Assembly (NCBI GenBank): GCA_951406725.2
Contig: OX597823.1
Span: 28,148,001-28,212,000, forward strand
DNA: 64,000 bases
Origin: Octopus vulgaris
Taxonomy: Eukaryota
Direction: 5' to 3'
The notes beneath the pieces are model-generated. The model worked only from the letters and a program-made list of their open reading frames with translations, ran no database searches and was not told the DNA's origin. A program made the translations under genes and the position numbers. Each line of letters begins with the position of its first letter. Position 1 is the stretch's first letter. Positions 4,884 through 28,397 of this stretch are shown here, piece after piece.

Positions 4884-5340
<457 letters not shown>

Positions 5341-5342
5341 CT

Positions 5343-7232
5343 GACATCTACTAACGCGGAAGTGCAGGACGCGATGGCAGAATGCTCGAGGGACACATCG
5401 CCGGGTTTCGATGGTCTACATTACGAGCTTTATCGTTGTATGCCAGACTTATTTGGAGACGTCTTGGCAGCGGTGTACTGTAACTGGCAGCAAAACGGGC
5501 GCATCCTCGGTTTAGTGAGCCGAGGAGCCGTAACACTGCTGAAAAAAGATCCAAACAAGGGGGACGTAATAGATAAGCTTAGGCTTATCACTCTGCTTAA
5601 TGCAGACTTAAAAATTTTGGCCAAGGTGTTAGCCAAGAGGTTAGCGCTTGTCATCGACAAACTGGTCAACGAGTCGCAAACGGGCCTGAGCATCCATGAC
5701 AACCTCCATCTGATGCGCTACATCATAGACAGGGTAGTTAAGGAACCTGGCATGGGTGGGGGCCTGATCAATTTGGATCAATCGAAAGCTTTCGATAGGG
5801 TAGACCATCGATTCTTGGAGGCTGTCCTCATAGCGGCTGGTTTCGGTCCCGTCTTCCGCGACTGAATAGCTGCTTTGTACAGAGGCATCCGTTCGGTAAT
5901 TCACGTAAATGGACATCTATCGAGACCTTTCGACATTGCACGTTCGGTCCGTCAGGGATACCCCCTCTCGTCGCTTCTATACCTATTGACTTTTGAGCCA
6001 TTTCTGCGGAAGCTGGTGACTCTGAGGGGTATATTGGAAGAATTGGGATGCGGGACGAGCGTGTCTGCATACGCAAACGACGTCACCGTCATAGTGTCTA
6101 GCCAAAAGCACATCGAGCTGGTCGGTGAGACACTGAAGGTCTATGAAGCGGCAACAGGAGCAAAAATCAACCGGGAAAATTCAGTGGGCTTGCGGCTCGG
6201 CACCTGGAGAAGCAACGGTCTGGTCGAGTTGCTCGGAGTCTGGTTTGGTCCGGACCTCCAAATGGAGAAAAACTAGAACGAGATAACGAGTAGGGGGTGG
6301 TCACTCTCACCCGGCAATGACCCGAGAGGAAGTTGTCCCTGAAAGATCGGGCGGAGGTGGTGAACACGAACATCGCGTCCGTCATCTACTACCGCCTGAC
6401 CGTCGTGCCTTGTCCCGACCCTACCATCACCAAACTAGAATACCTTCTCTTCCGCTTCTTGTGGAAAGGAGGCGTTCCGATGGTCAGGCGATCCAATTGC
6501 TGTCAACACCCGTAAAAAGGAAGGCTGGGCATGCCATGGTTGATGATGCACAGACACGCACCGAGACTGCCTCTCCGGCTCTACGTAGACTCTGTTGAGG
6601 AGGTTTGATAACCGTTTGTGAGGCATGCTTTCCAGCAGCTCGTTTCCATGTGGATCAAAAAGAGGCCGAGGAAGGGCGAATGGTACTGCGAGTGTCGCGT
6701 TGCTCTCAAGCAACTATGCCGTCCCTGGTCGACCTTGAGCAACTTCAACACAATCAAAGCGTTCTATAGGGAATTAGTGGTGGGGAGGTACGACGACGAT
6801 CTCGGAGCGAACCTGGGCGTCGACGAGGAATACCTGCCCAGCCTGTTCAAGACGACTTTCGGACTGGGACCTATGGACAACTTCCAGAGATCCATGGCCT
6901 GTCAGTGCTATCGAGAAGCGCTACCCGTTCGGGATAAGCTGTACAGACATGGCTCGACTATTGCCCAAAGTTCCCGTGGCCTTTTCCGTAGGGTTTTCTA
7001 TCCACGGACAAACCTAATCTGTTTTCCCTTTTTCATTCACATACACGATTCCTATTGATCAGCCCCACTTTGTTTTCACGATCCCTTTTGATCGGAATCC
7101 TCCTTTTTTTTTCACGATTCCTTTTGATCGGAATTGGCCCCTTCCTTCCCCCCTCCTCTTGTTCCCAAAAAGAAAAGCTCTCCTTTATATTTTGTCCTTT
7201 CTGTATCTAGCCCTGCGTGGCCAATAAAGAAA
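5343..7232 (+). mobile_element. 5'-truncated, decayed Tx1/L1-clade non-LTR retrotransposon (RT domain plus 3' UTR)
   Basis: Broken ORFs 5362-5865, 5875-6276, 6333-6515 and 6618-7058 carry SPGFDGL, ITLLNADLKILAKVLAKRL, NLDQSKAFDRVDH, SVRQGYPLSSLLY and AYANDV (YADD-like); premature stops and frameshifts; ends ...gtggccaataaagaaa then (TCTA)n. Confidence 0.92.
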
Positions 7233-14847: not shown

Positions 14848-15066
14848 ATTTTATGCTTGACTTTTGCTTTTCTATTTATACAAGTTGACTCTAAGTCTCA
14901 CCCAGAGAACCCAAGAGACAACAGGTTAAAAATTTCTGTTGGTGTTATGCCTGGGGTGCCATATCTTTGGTTTTGCACATAGGATTGTTTTAGAAACATA
15001 AAATTAAGAAAACATAAGAAAATTATAAGTTTGTTTTAAAATTTGAGATTACATAGACAGTATTAT
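14848..15066 (-). mobile_element. R4/Dong-like 3' end (ORF end ILSM* plus UTR)
   Basis: Minus strand ATACTGTCTATGTAA resembles the ...RALSM* end of the 15297 copy; followed by (TAA)n. Confidence 0.55.
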
Positions 15067-15104
15067 CATAATAATAATGATAATAATAATAATAATAATA
15101 ATTC

Positions 15105-15278
<174 letters not shown>

Positions 15279-15296
15279 TAATAATAATAATAATAA

Positions 15297-16097
15297 AAAG
15301 CCTATTAACCCGGAACTACCAGGCCAATGTGATGAAAAATGGAGCAGACCCAAAATGCCGATTCTGCAACGACATGATTGAAACAGTGGACCACCTAATC
15401 TCTGGATGTAAAGTCTTAGCTCCAGTGGAGTATAAATTAAGACATGACAGAGTTGGCCAATATCTACACTGGCTAATAAGTCGGCATTACAATATCAAAA
15501 CTGCCGACAAGTGGTATAATCACCATCCTGAGGCTGTAACTGAAGGAGAAAATGTAACCATTCTGTGGGACTTTCCAGTACATACAGACCGAACCATCAA
15601 GGCCAATAAAACAGATATTGTTGTGAAAGACCAAAATAATAAAGTTTGCTTATTGATCGACATGAGCATCCCCTGTGATCATAATATCCCAGCGAAAGAG
15701 TTTGACAAGCTCAGAAAATATAAAGACCTACTCATTGAAATTGAGAAAATGTGGCATCTCAAGGCGGTTACAATACCAGTGATCGTAGGAGCACTAGGAA
15801 TGATCAAGAAGGGGACCGAAAATTATATGAGAATGATCCCTGGCTTACCATCCCTGCAAGAAGTGCAAAAGATTGTCTTAACTGGTACATCACACGTATT
15901 GAGAAGAGCATTGTCGATGTGAGAACTGTTGCTGCTCATGTATTTTAATTTAACTTAAAAAATAAAAAAAATAAAAAATGAACGAACTATTAAGTTTGGT
16001 TTAATGGCCTACCAATGTATACTATGAGTTTCTTTGCCCTAGGAGTCGGGAAGACACTCGGCAAGAAATGGAAGCAAATTTGAAAGAAGAAAAAAAG
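15297..16097 (+). mobile_element. 5'-truncated R4/Dong-clade non-LTR retrotransposon, intact C-terminal frame
   Basis: CRFC...ETVDHLISGC zinc knuckle, RHD motif, ILWDF..TDR...NKTDIV..LIDMS restriction-like endonuclease, PVIVGALG; stop at 15920-15922; (TAA)n on both sides; the poly-Ile N-terminus of the ORF is microsatellite. Confidence 0.92.
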
Positions 16098-16322: not shown

Positions 16323-16560
16323 GTCTTTGCACAGCGTCTAATGCTGGAGATATAGTACGGTGTCAGCTGTTCATTGCCAGTGAACTAAAGTAACACCCTC
16401 TATTTTTCGAGCACCATCTGGAGTATTCGAGCGCTTCTAAGTAGTGTTGTTTTCTGCAAGTGCTCTACCCTTATTGCAGTCCCTATTTTTTTCATGCACT
16501 TCTCAAGATTTTTACTCACTGTTCCCAGGTCTCCGACAATTATTGGTACTACTGCTCCTT
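16323..16560 (-). mobile_element. R4/Dong-like C-terminal fragment
   Basis: Minus strand VVPIIVGDLGTVSKNLEKCMKKIGTAIRVEHLQKTTLLRSARILQMVLEK*, then UTR and (TAA)n. Confidence 0.8.
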
Positions 16561-16569
16561 TTTTTCATC

Positions 16570-17170
16570 GACGTGTGATCTTATTCCTGGTGGGATTTAT
16601 GCGGGTTACGTGTTATTACCCGTAATCTTAGGTATCCACAATATATCAATAGCCTTTGAAGTGCTTAGAACTCACCTGATAATCATTCCTGTCCCTATGA
16701 GACAAACTTTCTGTAGAAGGTCAACCGAACATTCTTTCCCATTCTCCTTCAACCATTTGTCTATACCTTTGCTTACAGTTCCCTATGCACCATTTATTAT
16801 AAGTACAGCCTTTACATTTTTCATATTCCAAATTCTTGTAATTCAAAATTTTAAGGGATTGAATATTTTCGTCTTCTTTCTTTTTTCGATCCTAGAATCA
16901 AACGGACAGGATGGATCAATTAGCAGGCAACTTAGCTTTTCCTTGTCTATTATTGTTATATTCCGTTTGAATAGGAAATTCCCACAGAATCTTACAATTC
17001 TCCGACTCCAGCACTCTTTCGACCCGATGTTCATACCATGTGTTTCTAGCTTAAAATCCCTATTTCTGGCAAAGCTTCCGGTGTAAAACCTCTGCGACAT
17101 GGGAATGCCTCCATTTCTTATATTTTTCCTGTGCCAACTTGGGACACACTGCAACAATTTGTGGCACTAT
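16570..17170 (-). mobile_element. Degenerate R4/Dong-like endonuclease fragment
   Basis: Frameshifted WYEH, IIDKEKLSCLLIDPSCPFDSRI and LLQKVCLIGTG motifs. Confidence 0.7.
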
Positions 17171-18974: not shown

Positions 18975-20719
18975 TACTTATGCATGTTAGAGAACACAAA
19001 AAGAGAAAACACTGCAAATACTTCGAAAACCTCTGTATCACTAATCGATTGTATCTGTAGGAGTCGGTTGGTTTCATCATTCTTGGAAAACCTCAGCAAC
19101 CCATGCTTTTATATAAATCTGTTGTCACATCGCTCAGTGGTTGTTCATCTGCGATAATAAGTATACATGAAAATCTATAGCCGGGTTACAAGAGCAGCAA
19201 ATTCTACAGTAGTTCTCCACAGATGTTACAATCCTTTACACCGTTATCTCTTCCGCACATTCACATATGTACGATGACTGACCTCTGTAAAAGTGCATGA
19301 TTCGATTTCTCCATCCTTTGAACAATCTATTGTATATGCTCACATTCATTTGATTTTATCACTGGAATGTTCCACCAGCATATTTCTATTCCTAATATGT
19401 GTGCATATATTGTGGTTTTAGTGTGCCATGAGGATAATTACCAGGGTAAACCTTCTTACACTTTAGCTTGTCAATATTTTTAGCAACAATCCCACGTCTC
19501 ACCGATCATGGTGTTCACACAGATGATGGTGTGAATAATGTTTTGACACAAGGTAATTCTTTTGAGTTACATCCTTCCTATTATTGTATCCTTCTAAGTG
19601 GGATGTGATATGCCTATCACAGGCCCAGGAAAGGATATTTATCCGGCTACGATTGCTGGTATATTTAGGGTACTCACCCACGAAACCTTTTCTGCTAATA
19701 TTTTGAATTTTTCTTCTCAAAATTACTGCTCAAGTACGTCTGTGAACATAGGCTCACTCACATGAACTTGATTTCAAAATATAACTTTCTACGTTATGTG
19801 CATATCTTATGTTTCCGTACTGCCATTATTGTATCGAATCGCCGACATGTGCTCAGAGCCCGCAGATTGCTTGGAGATACAAAGCGTGTTATAAAAAGCC
19901 TGCGTAGATATCAGTTTTCATAGCAAGAAACTATTACCAGTTAGTATCTTTGTAGTGTGTACATTTAGTTATATTCATCACCCCCTTTTAGAGAAAAGAT
20001 ATTTTATACTTACAAAAATGGCTGGATGCAGAGGCGACAACGTGGCGGTCATAAGAGTCATTAGATGCTATGAGGATAGGGGAAAACATACAAAAATGAT
20101 GATTTTCGTCATTTTTGGGCAAATTCTCTTGCAACCCGAAAGAAAATTTTAAGAGAACATGCATTTAATTTGACGACTGTATTTCATGTGTATAGTTCCA
20201 CTGATCGTGGGAATCAAATATCAATTGCAACGGTCAGAACCGACACTCTTAAGTGCAAGTGTTAAGAAAATACATATTACATATTTTAGCATACAAAGTT
20301 GCAACGTTTAGAATCGATAATTTTAAGTGCAGGTGTTAAAAATATACATGTTACAGCAATTTGACAACAATTTAGGCACAATTTAGGCCAAATTTCGTTA
20401 ATCAGTTAACCAAAAATCATATTACGCTTTACTTGATCCATCTCTATAACATTTCAACAAAACCTGTTAAAAGCCTTAAAAGTAATGGCAGAAAATAACA
20501 TTCATATGAGAATTTGCATTGAAATGTCCTATTGATTCTTGAAAGTCCGATGCTGATTATAAATTATCAATTTTCTTGAAATTTCAAGTGTGTAAGCACC
20601 CCTCCCCCCATGTGTCAAGGTTTCATCAAAATTGGTTAGATAGTCTTGGAGGAGTTAAAGTAACAAATGCACAAACACACAAACACAATCATAAACATAC
20701 AGAAATTGGCATTTATGTA

Positions 20720-20785: not shown

Positions 20786-20908
20786 CACGTGATCAAGTGA
20801 TCACGTGACCGACCAGGCTATCAGATGTTGTTACACATCGCTGGTCACAATGCACTTCGCATTGTTTTAGCCTTCGAATGACGCAACCCCGCTGGCTAAG
20901 TGAGCAGG

Positions 20909-20912
<4 letters not shown>
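20785..20912 (-). mobile_element. RTE-type 3' tail fragment inside (TA)n
   Basis: Shares tgtgaccagcg...ctggtcggtca.gtgatca with the RTE-like end at 41248-41384. Confidence 0.55.
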
Positions 20913-20960
<48 letters not shown>

Positions 20961-21206
20961 ATTATTACCTATGAGGTTTTTTTCCCATGCTAACCACTTG
21001 ATATGATCGGTATTTTAAATAACGATCTTATCCTTATATATATATATATATTTTTTTTTCTCTCCTTGTTTTTTCTGTGTCCCTTTCTGTAGAAGAAAGT
21101 AGGCTCGAAACGTAAAATACTTTTTCCTATTCCTGAGCGTTATACTAATACATCTGTTTGTTTTGTACACCACCTGTCATCGTCTTTTGTTTTTTTCGTA
21201 AGCTCT

Positions 21207-21360
<154 letters not shown>

Positions 21361-22087
21361 TAATAGAAATATTAAAATTACTAAGTCTCTCTAAAAGAGA
21401 TCACGGCAGCGTTCCTGGAAAATAATAGTTATCGCCATACTAATATGGCATTCTTATAAAAGTAAGAATAAAGATGTCCGCTTATTAGCTCCATGAGGCC
21501 ATCGCCTTAAGTTAGCTATTTGATACACAAACTGTATCCATATAACCTTCGAACAAGGGAGGTCAGTCGCTCCACACTACTTGACCGACAGCTACAGACG
21601 CGTTTCGGGGTATTGCCCCTTTTCAATGTAGCGTAGTCAGACCAGTAGGTGTCGCTTCCGACAATCTCTGTTCGAAGGTTTTATTTACCTAGCTTCGGTG
21701 GAATACATCCACTTGTTTACAATAATAGAAATATTAAAATTACTAAGTCTCTCTAAAAGAGATCACGGCAGCGTTCCTGGAAAATAATAGTTATCGCCAT
21801 ACTAATATGGCATTCTTATAAAAATAAGAATAAAGCTGTCCGCTTATTAGCTCCATGAGGCCATCGCTAACTTAAGGCGATGGCCTCATTGAAAAGGGGC
21901 AATACCCCGAAACGCGTCTGTAGCTGTCGGTCAAGTAGTGTGGAGCGACTGACCTCCCTTGTTCGAAGGTTATATGGATACAGTTTGTGTATCAAATAGC
22001 TAACTTAAGGCGATGGCCTCATGGAGCTAATAAGCGGACAGCTTTATTCTTATATTTATAAGAATGCCATATTAGTATAGCGATAAC

Positions 22088-22092
<5 letters not shown>
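21361..22092. mobile_element. Penelope/retrozyme-like element: 362-bp unit, partial tandem copy and inverted copy, between (TA)n arrays
   Basis: 21361-21506 is repeated at 21723-21867; 21887-22092 is the inverted copy of about 21423-21628; copies are nearly identical. Confidence 0.85.
21591..21632 (-). ncRNA. Minimal type-I hammerhead ribozyme, U3-A8 core variant
   Basis: GCTACA-TTGAAAA-GGGGcaataCCCC-GAAA-cgcg-TC-TGTAGC; perfect stems I and II, palindromic stem III. Confidence 0.75.
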
Positions 22093-22148
<56 letters not shown>

Positions 22149-27880: not shown

Positions 27881-27928
27881 ATTTAGTAACTTAGAAAATG
27901 GTATTTTTTACTGTTACTAATACTGTTA

Positions 27929-28397
27929 CTCGAAAGAGTCCAGAGGCTGGCTACCCGCATGGTTCATGGTCTCAAAAATTTGTCCTACGAAGAAAGGCTG
28001 AGGACGCTCGACCTTTATTCTCTTGAAAAACGCCGCCGCCGTGGTGATCTCATTCTCGCCCACAACATCATAAGCGGGAAGTGTAACCTCTCGAAAGAGC
28101 TGTTCTTCACTCCTGCTCCGGAGCGTCGGCTGCGGGGTCATTCCGAAAAGCTCTACCTGCGACGATTTCATCTCAATCGAAGGAGAGGAGCTTTCTCCGT
28201 CCGGGTTGCGGATCCGTGGAACAAGCTGCCAGACGAGATGGTGAAGATGCCGACGACCGCTTTGTTCAAAACCTCCCTGGACCTCAAGTGGCCTGAACTC
28301 TTTACATGAACACCACCCTGTACTTAACTCCATGTCCCCCTACATGGCCTTGCTATTTGCTTTTGAGCCAAATTAACTAACTAACTAACTAACTAAT
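27929..28397 (+). mobile_element. 5'-truncated CR1-clade LINE 3' end with (TAAC)n tail
   Basis: LERVQRLATRMVHGLKNLSYEERLRTLDLYSLEKRRRRGDLI...RGH...FSVRVADPWNKLP; stop at 28307-28309; GC-rich and uninterrupted. Confidence 0.92.

What the first reader, a model, noticed from the sequence alone, without database searches (positions are those of the whole stretch)
21361..22092. Young 362-bp retrozyme/Penelope-like unit with a U3-A8 compensated hammerhead, in tandem and inverted copies
Seen: a non-coding 362-bp monomer, a partial head-to-tail repeat and an inverted copy, nearly identical and bounded by (TA)n. The minus strand at 21632-21591 reads GCUACA-UUGAAAA-GGGG-caaua-CCCC-GAAA-CGCG-UC-UGUAGC. 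Established: hammerhead positions 3 and 8 form a base pair (normally C3-G8), so U3-A8 is a compensatory variant that a plain CUGANGA search would miss. Minimal type-I hammerheads with a palindromic stem III occur in Penelope-like elements and in short tandem non-LTR retrozymes that give circular RNAs. Inference: this is a recently active non-autonomous retrozyme family producing a 362-nt monomer or circle. The inverted copy starts within stem I at a 'cat' microhomology, which suggests template switching during reverse transcription.
Basis: partly seen in the sequence, partly recalled or inferred. Interest (0 to 1): 0.85.

Follow-up and report, generated by a model that had tools for sequence, protein, structure and literature searches.

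The report
Penelope-hijacking retrozyme with variant hammerhead core
This is one copy of a 362-base non-coding repeat family whose hammerhead ribozyme motif, predicted to self-cleave, occurs over 1,700 times in the genome, and whose insertions carry the inverted, two-ended footprint of Penelope-like transposons, which likely copy it, so a long-suspected partnership becomes testable.

Summary
The window carries one insertion of a dispersed 362-bp non-coding family: 1,726 exact hammerhead-motif matches genome-wide, U3-A8 in all 200 listed, no C3-G8 copy. Across subfamilies down to about 80% identity, stems I, II and the stem III palindrome co-vary while the core is fixed except position 7. The ribozyme has canonical (6+4 bp), not minimal, geometry, and U3-A8 is a published natural variant. 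3' ends fall at two fixed sites about 60 nt apart, mostly in (TA)n. Two-arm inverted insertions pair one long with one short end (33 of 34), both arms share one haplotype, and target duplications are 10-14 bp. This is the Penelope-like element (PLE) signature. A young, intact 781-aa PLE here shares the footprint, a U3-A8 core and the terminal motif, and is the best candidate mobiliser. This locus has only one intact hammerhead and is likely a dead end. Cleavage, expression and circles are untested. Verdict: a non-LTR retrozyme variant with unusually direct evidence of PLE mobilisation.

The parts
21361..21722 (-). Full 362-nt retrozyme unit (q1-362); its 3' end is the 'long' end, running into (TA)n
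   Evidence: family
21591..21632 (-). Type I hammerhead: stem I 6 bp, core U3-U4-G5-A6-A7-A8-A9, stem II 4 bp, GAAA, palindromic stem III; predicted cut between 21597 and 21596
   Evidence: stems I and II pair with probability 0.94 or more in the folded monomer; covariation
21543..21680 (-). Long rod that extends stem I and presents the ribozyme
   Evidence: z = -6.9; 5 pairs with two-sided changes, all in this rod
21361..21421 (-). About 60-nt 'tail' (q302-362) between the two fixed 3'-end sites
   Evidence: end positions
21723..21867 (-). 5'-truncated head-to-tail partial unit (q218-362), no hammerhead
21866..21889 (+). Template-switch piece q207-230; GC overlap with the minus arm at its left end, CAT overlap with the plus arm at its right end
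21887..22093 (+). Inverted arm q95-301 ending at the 'short' site; holds a hammerhead core (21889-21924) with stem I cut to 2 bp, likely impaired
21210..21360 (.). (TA)n target, left side
22092..22148 (.). (TA)n target, right side
21053..21210 (+). Neighbour, not part of the insertion: 3'-end relic of an autonomous PLE (73% to family PLE2) ending in the same TA tract
   Evidence: L001:1192-1403

Best explanation
This locus is one insertion of a dispersed, non-coding 362-nt tandem repeat family with a conserved U3-A8 hammerhead motif (a non-LTR retrozyme) whose RNA is likely copied into AT-rich DNA by the reverse transcriptase/GIY-YIG protein of a Penelope-like element. SHOWN: family size and subfamilies; covariation of the ribozyme; no ORF; two fixed 3' ends; long-plus-short pairing of inverted arms; shared haplotype of arms; 10-14 bp duplications; (TA)n preference. 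INFERRED: (1) arrays with two or more ribozymes are transcribed and cut to unit length, helped by pairing of two palindromic stems III (about 0.75); (2) monomers are ligated to circles (about 0.6); (3) a PLE protein, probably a dimer, makes a staggered cut of about 12 nt and both DNA 3' ends prime cDNA on the same RNA, one at q~301 and one at q~362 (PLE machinery about 0.9); (4) each enzyme runs through the ribozyme site and the unit junction, giving head-to-tail units, and the two cDNAs join through short overlaps, giving the inversion; (5) the donor is PLE3 or a close relative (about 0.55). The window copy has one intact ribozyme and is likely a dead end.
For: Family: 1105 + 621 exact motif matches, controls 0; all 200 listed are U3-A8; 0 C3-G8. 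Selection on structure, 35 distinct copies: stem I pair GC 19 / AU 12 / GU 4; stem II closing pair AU 20 / GC 11 / GU 3 / other 1; stem III palindrome AU 20 / GC 15; 45 cells with two-sided change against 18.5 shuffled and at most 7 in slid controls. Position 7 is A, C, U or G. Footprint: 41 of 56 loci two-armed, 34 long+short, 0 long+long, 0 short+short; in 77 pattern-picked loci (partly the same loci) 33 of 34 long+short, and 92 of 106 standard ends in TA. One template: 55 of 2284 comparisons at shared polymorphic columns differ within loci, 31% between loci. Overlap of 2 nt or more at 27 of 43 inversion junctions; only 2 of 86 breakpoints at the cleavage site. Duplications of 10-14 bp at 8 of 105 loci against 0.4 in shuffled pairs. 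Up to 5.5 units per insertion; 16 of 55 loci on C1 have two same-strand ribozymes one unit apart. Tail, inverted 5' copy and microsatellite bias are PLE hallmarks (PMC8557442, passages). A PLE protein cut both strands and primed at two internal RNA sites in vitro and was predicted to be a dimer (PMC11167929). PLE3: 781-aa RT + GIY-YIG, many copies at 98-100%, two ends 34 nt apart, 4 of 20 loci two-armed and all 4 long+short, U3-A8 core with the CATG palindrome of subfamily C and a long end in CTATTAT like the retrozyme's ends.
Against: No cleavage, RNA or circle was observed. Rfam gave no hammerhead hit at E up to 10. Covariation reflects a few subfamily-level events rather than independent ones; the stem III change could be two CpG decays; the motif positions fixed by my search patterns are invariant by construction. 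The distal pair of stem I is broken in 13 of 35 copies and one flanking pair in 23 of 35. No extended DNA homology links the unit to PLE1, PLE2 or PLE3 (best exact matches 11-14 nt). PLE3's tail is 34 nt, not 60, and its hammerhead-like motif has a poor stem I. The one clean chimera (L093) joins the retrozyme to PLE2, not PLE3. Only three PLE families were examined. In PMC11167929 the hammerhead was dispensable for insertion in vitro, and in the 2026 preprint 8 of 9 predicted retrozyme dimers did not cleave.
Confidence: 0.82

Rival explanations
1. PLE-mobilised, but the template is an uncleaved linear multimer from a source array; the ribozyme is slow or protein-dependent and circles play no part in mobility.
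For: Read-through of the cleavage site and tandem units fit a multimer as well as a circle. Units within a locus differ by 1.0% (386 of 40247). Hammerhead mutants did not affect insertion in PMC11167929.
Against: The ribozyme and rod stay paired across subfamilies at about 80% identity. No shared 5' leader upstream of the units was seen in the loci laid out. Comparable animal units accumulate as circles (PMC7229834).
Confidence: 0.3
2. The mobiliser is PLE1, PLE2 or a PLE family not examined here rather than PLE3.
For: L093 joins the retrozyme at q45 directly to the GIY-YIG region of PLE2, a likely template switch. PLE1 and PLE2 are young and also insert in TA. Tail lengths of PLE3 and the retrozyme differ.
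Against: PLE1 (0 of 18 loci) and PLE2 (0 of 23) show a single 3' end and no two-arm inversions. The tail pattern (30 of 53 matches examined) and U3-A8 patterns found no other ORF-bearing family sharing these motifs.
Confidence: 0.35
3. The unit is only the orphan pseudo-LTR (3' end) of 5'-truncated autonomous PLE copies, not an element of its own.
For: Truncated PLE ends are common in this genome, one lies beside this locus, and solo hammerhead-bearing ends dominate many genomes (PMC4209133).
Against: Upstream of q1 lies q362 of another unit or a breakpoint, never PLE coding sequence in register, in the loci laid out. Arrays reach 5.5 units with no ORF.
Confidence: 0.04
4. A SINE mobilised by a LINE, with inversions from twin priming.
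For: LINE fragments are abundant in the window; 10-14 bp duplications and junction overlaps also fit LINE insertions (own knowledge).
Against: No poly(A) or repeat tail belongs to the unit. Both arms end at fixed sites, whereas twin priming gives a variable second site (own knowledge). The same long+short pattern occurs in PLE3.
Confidence: 0.05
5. A satellite or local fold-back duplication, or an assembly artefact, with a chance hammerhead-like string.
For: TA tracts are fragile and hard to assemble; Rfam gave no hit.
Against: Dispersed on many chromosomes, short arrays, fixed ends, target duplications and covariation; contigs of runs under other organism labels hold it too.
Confidence: 0.01

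Closest known systems
Metazoan non-LTR retrozymes (Cervera and de la Pena 2020, PMC7229834): coral, mussel, axolotl
   Same: Non-coding tandem unit in the 150-450 bp range (mussel 350-390), type I hammerhead of canonical geometry, self-paired fold with the ribozyme free, GC under 50%, target duplications longer than 4 bp, PLEs in the same genome.
   Different: Core is U3-A8 in all 200 listed copies, C3-G8 in none. Arrays are short and mostly two-armed inversions with two fixed ends in (TA)n, a footprint not described in the parts read (supplement not readable). Circles and cleavage are shown there, not here.
Pseudo-LTR hammerheads of Penelope-like elements, including the U3-A8 Cercyon variant (PMC4209133)
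   Same: U3-A8 covariation, palindromic stem III, predicted dimer fold.
   Different: Those are minimal motifs (stem I 4-5 bp, stem II 7-8 bp, unpaired base before stem II) flanking an ORF or left as solo relics; this one is canonical in geometry and sits in an ORF-free repeating unit.
PLE insertion structure and two-site priming (PMC8557442; PAc, PMC11167929)
   Same: Partial tandems, inverted 5'-truncated copy, tail at one end only, AT or (TA)n targets, two start sites.
   Different: Tail about 60 nt rather than 30-40; seen on a non-autonomous RNA; strict one-long-one-short pairing and shared haplotype counted here.
Vertebrate retrozymes as non-autonomous PLE derivatives (bioRxiv 10.64898/2026.07.22.740005)
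   Same: Same proposed partnership.
   Different: That work argues from co-occurrence and pLTR homology and suggests local amplification of tandems; here no pLTR homology was found and the evidence is the insertion footprint, which points to tandems made during reverse transcription.

Membership tests
Type I hammerhead ribozyme | Core with a 3-8 pair, U4 G5 A6 N7, A9, GAAA, UH site, three helices, open stem I | tested here: met
   U3-A8 in 35 of 35; natural U3-A8 cores reported in PMC3088659
Type I hammerhead ribozyme | Covariation of helices | tested here: met
   two-sided changes in stems I and II and the stem III palindrome, above shuffled and slid controls; few independent events
Type I hammerhead ribozyme | Match to Rfam hammerhead models | tested here: not met
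   no hammerhead hit at E up to 10; the variant core is my inferred reason
Type I hammerhead ribozyme | Self-cleavage | not testable with these tools
   needs in vitro transcription
Canonical hammerhead | Loop 1-loop 2 tertiary contact | not tested
   6-bp/4-bp geometry with a 3-nt bulge fits; likeness to the Schistosoma contact is recalled only
Minimal PLE hammerhead | Stem I 4-5 bp, stem II 7-8 bp, unpaired base 5' of stem II | tested here: not met
   stem I 6 bp, stem II 4 bp, no extra base against PMC4209133
Non-LTR retrozyme | 150-450 bp non-coding tandem units each with a type I hammerhead | tested here: met
   family level: 16 of 55 C1 loci with two ribozymes one unit apart, 5.5-mer, no ORF; this locus alone has one
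Non-LTR retrozyme | Many dispersed copies; target duplications longer than 4 bp where visible | tested here: met
   8 of 105 loci with 10-14 bp duplications, control 0.4
Non-LTR retrozyme | No LTR, primer-binding site or polypurine tract | tested here: inconclusive
   no LTR-type layout in the loci laid out; primer-binding site and polypurine tract were not searched
Non-LTR retrozyme | Expressed as unit-length linear and circular RNA | not testable with these tools
   needs northern, RNase R and divergent RT-PCR
Autonomous PLE | RT + GIY-YIG ORF between pseudo-LTRs | tested here: not met
PLE-mobilised element | Partial tandems, inverted 5' copy, one-sided tail, microsatellite bias | tested here: met
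PLE-mobilised element | Sequence homology to a pseudo-LTR of an autonomous PLE | tested here: not met
   three families only; best exact matches 11-14 nt

The most novel reading that the evidence does not exclude
An identifiable retrozyme-PLE pair: a U3-A8 circular ribozyme RNA that parasitises a young, intact Neptune-like element (PLE3) by offering two CTATTA-type start sites. A PLE dimer would prime twice on one circle from the two ends of a staggered cut of about 12 nt, so each insertion records both subunits as one long and one short arm. The pair would allow retrozyme mobilisation and PLE second-strand synthesis to be reconstituted in vitro.
Probability: 0.35. Interest if true: 0.75.

Novelty: new variant of a known kind. 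Interest (0 to 1): 0.55.

Why it matters
Animal retrozymes were proposed to ride on Penelope-like elements, on the basis of co-occurrence, shared ribozyme class and some pseudo-LTR homology. Here the insertions themselves carry the PLE footprint, in numbers, and a live candidate partner sits in the same genome. The strict long-plus-short pairing also bears on how PLEs make inverted repeats and tails, which PMC8557442 lists as open. A natural series of canonical U3-A8 ribozymes, which fixed CUGANGA searches miss and Rfam did not report here, suggests retrozymes are undercounted.

Tried and rejected
RNA: no RNA holder listed. Five runs guessed to be RNA, all contigs, were laid (four, one); they cannot show strand, ends, level or circularity, so I draw nothing from them. 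Rfam: no hammerhead hit; the hits were TA-repeat noise. PLE1 and PLE2 as partners: no shared sequence and a different footprint; a 13-nt antisense match to PLE2 had E 0.48 and was treated as chance. Search for a parent PLE sharing the tail (30 of 53 matches examined) or the core: only family members, chance hits and one unrelated small hammerhead-like family. L137, where retrozyme and PLE3 lie 155 bp apart with unidentified sequence between, is ambiguous and not counted as a chimera. L075/L076, two motifs 6.6 kb apart, flank no ORF. Pol III box-like words were noticed by eye on both strands, are not conserved across subfamilies and were not pursued. Circle versus linear multimer could not be separated from DNA. 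Earlier findings of the scan: none returned. The supplement of PMC7229834 and the Lunse et al. paper on dimeric PLE hammerheads could not be read, and may already list such variants or footprints.

Full report
OBSERVATION. The window is G000:C10:28148001-28212000 in a 2.8-Gb, 227-contig genome. I number the unit along the minus strand (q1 = 21722, q362 = 21361). Left to right: (TA)n; a full unit; a head-to-tail partial unit q218-362 (21723-21867); a plus-strand piece q207-230 (21866-21889); a plus-strand arm q95-301 (21887-22093); (TA)n. The hammerhead at minus 21632-21591 is as described, with the predicted cut at 21597/21596. Three corrections. The tandem copy ends before the ribozyme and the inverted arm keeps 2 bp of stem I beside the core, so there is one intact ribozyme and this locus cannot release a unit by double cleavage. 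The CAT overlap is a same-strand jump; the inversion itself is at a GC overlap about 21 nt away. The geometry (stem I 6 bp plus a 3-nt bulge, stem II 4 bp, 2-bp palindromic stem III) is the canonical class of PMC4209133, not the minimal class.

THE FAMILY. A DNA search gave 136 matches from 40 scored of 1874 candidates, full-length ones at 94-98%. Exact patterns leaving positions 3, 7 and 8 free gave 1105 matches with a 5-nt loop II and 621 with a 6-nt loop, reversed controls 0. All 200 listed are U3-A8; a C3-G8 pattern gave 0. Subfamilies lie at about 94-98%, 84-88% and 76-84% to the window copy. Contigs of two runs under other organism labels hold the unit at very high summed depth; the labels are coded, so how distant these hosts are is unknown. 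The host looks like an invertebrate, perhaps a cephalopod; that is a recalled impression and no call tested it.

THE RIBOZYME IS UNDER SELECTION. In 35 distinct copies of 39 aligned, a stem I pair is GC 19, AU 12, GU 4; the stem II closing pair is AU 20, GC 11, GU 3, other 1; the centre of the stem III palindrome is AU 20, GC 15. Cells with two-sided change number 45, against 18.5 in shuffles and at most 7 in slid controls. In the 100 listed matches, counted by eye, 74 are CATG, 24 CGCG and 2 non-palindromic. Position 7 takes A, C, U or G. In 21 full units 99% of cells pair and 5 rod pairs change on both sides. Stems I and II are predicted open and formed in the monomer; the rod has z = -6.9. 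Against: these are a handful of inherited events, pattern-fixed columns are invariant by design, the palindrome change could be two CpG decays, one distal stem I pair fails in 13 of 35 and a flanking pair in 23 of 35, and Rfam finds nothing. U3-A8 is not new: PMC3088659 (passages) reports it in nature and cites in vitro activity, and PMC4209133 (parts 1-2 of 4) reports about 1,300 hits with Schistosoma PLEs.

THE INSERTION FOOTPRINT. In 56 distinct loci, 87 of 97 outer 3' ends fall at q296-304 (short) or q358-362 (long), 80 of these 87 run into TA, 41 loci have 3' ends pointing out on both sides, and 34 of those pair one long with one short end, none long-long or short-short, 7 having a non-standard end. 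Because about half of these loci were picked for a full-length match, I recounted 77 loci picked by motif (partly overlapping the first set; duplicates removed): 46 two-armed, 34 with two standard ends, 33 long+short, 1 long+long, 0 short+short; 92 of 106 standard ends in TA. Independent choice would give about half. Units and arms of one locus share a haplotype: 55 of 2284 comparisons differ at shared polymorphic columns, against 47302 of 151527 between loci (65 subfamily-A loci). Of 43 inversion junctions 27 overlap by 2 nt or more, and 5' breakpoints spread over the unit with 2 of 86 at the cleavage site, so the template was uncleaved or ligated. Where the target is not pure TA, duplications of 10-14 bp appear (8 of 105 loci, shuffled mean 0.4, maximum 3). 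Arrays reach 5.5 units and 16 of 55 motif loci on C1 have two same-strand ribozymes one unit apart. Partial tandems, an inverted 5' copy, a one-sided tail and microsatellite bias are PLE hallmarks (PMC8557442, passages). A purified PLE protein cut both strands of AT-rich DNA, started at two internal RNA sites bounding the tail and was predicted to be a dimer (PMC11167929, parts 1-2 of 4).

THE PARTNER. I found three young PLE families with intact RT + GIY-YIG frames and a Cys linker like that described for Neptune and Nematis (clade not tested by a tree). PLE1 (6164-bp period) and PLE2 (4479 bp) insert in TA but have one 3' end and no two-arm inversions (0 of 18 and 0 of 23 loci). PLE3 (781 aa, 4713-bp period, 28% to PLE1) has two ends 34 nt apart, and 4 of 20 loci are two-armed, all long+short. 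Its 3' region has a U3-A8 core with the same position 7 and CATG palindrome as subfamily C, and its long end finishes in CTATTAT; the window unit has CTATTA at both of its end sites. Against PLE3: no extended homology, a different tail length, a weak stem I in its own motif, and the one clean chimera joins the retrozyme to PLE2 (L093). That chimera still shows retrozyme and PLE sequence joined directly, most simply by a template switch. Other PLE families were not surveyed.

MECHANISM. Arrays with two or more ribozymes are likely transcribed (promoter unknown) and cut to 362-nt units, aided by pairing of two stems III, and would be ligated by a host ligase as proposed for other animal retrozymes, whose circles were shown by northern and whose monomers RtcB closed in vitro (PMC7229834, parts 2-4 of 6). 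A PLE protein dimer would bind the RNA, cut AT-rich DNA with a stagger of about 12 nt and prime from both DNA ends, one at each start site; the enzymes run past the ribozyme site and junction, and the two cDNAs meet through short overlaps. At this locus one arm began at q362 and copied a unit and 145 nt more; the other began at q301, stalled at q95, jumped to q230 and joined at q207. The footprint is shown; cleavage, circles, dimer and partner are inferred.

WHAT IS KNOWN AND WHAT IS NEW. Non-LTR retrozymes, the U3-A8 pair, the PLE footprint and the proposal that PLEs mobilise retrozymes are all in print; the last also in a 2026 preprint (parts 1-3 of 5) that argues from co-occurrence and pseudo-LTR homology and found cleavage in 1 of 9 dimers. 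In eight searches and the parts read I did not find an all-U3-A8 canonical retrozyme family, nor the two-end inverted footprint reported for a retrozyme. The library lacks most subscription papers, and the supplement of PMC7229834 and the Lunse et al. paper (title seen in a reference list of PMC6765202, passages) were not readable, so this is a limited negative.

VERDICT. Real, and a member of a known class on every sequence test I could run, except the Rfam match and pseudo-LTR homology. New variant of a known kind; interest 0.55, mainly because the footprint and a live candidate partner make retrozyme mobilisation directly testable.

Noticed in passing
window 21053-21210 (+): 3'-end relic of a PLE2-like element (73%) ending in the TA tract that the retrozyme later entered.
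   Followed up: partly
L127-L129, L190-L209 (PLE2); L061-L064, L210-L225 (PLE1): Very young autonomous PLE families with one 3' end and direct tandems only. Their hammerhead-like motifs have non-standard cores (PLE2 appears to have U at position 6; PLE1 C at position 4; read by eye).
   Followed up: partly
L258:3074-5416 (-), L264 (PLE3): Intact 781-aa PLE with a U3-A8 hammerhead-like motif, a 34-nt tail and long+short inverted insertions.
   Followed up: yes
L093:1-2052 and L106: Composite insertion: about 1.2 kb of PLE2 3' end joined without TA to the retrozyme at q45, the other arm ending at q301.
   Followed up: yes
L283, L295, L299 (about 1501-1540): Another small repeated family with a U3-A8 core, a 5-bp stem II and a 10-nt loop; no PLE ORF or retrozyme homology within 1.5 kb.
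   Followed up: partly
window 20786-20910: A short unit between two TA tracts, opening with a palindromic stretch; possibly another TA-targeting insertion.
   Followed up: no
run X18, record 17: A single 392-base contig that wraps around the unit junction, as expected from either a tandem array or a circle; the run's kind is not on record.
   Followed up: no
window 5218-6273, 6612-7055, 15047-15919, 16445-17083, 27890-28306: Reading frames that look like fragments of LINE-type retrotransposons (judged by eye).
   Followed up: no
window 20225-20355: Two-copy 57-nt direct repeat, 82% identical, 74-nt spacing.
   Followed up: no
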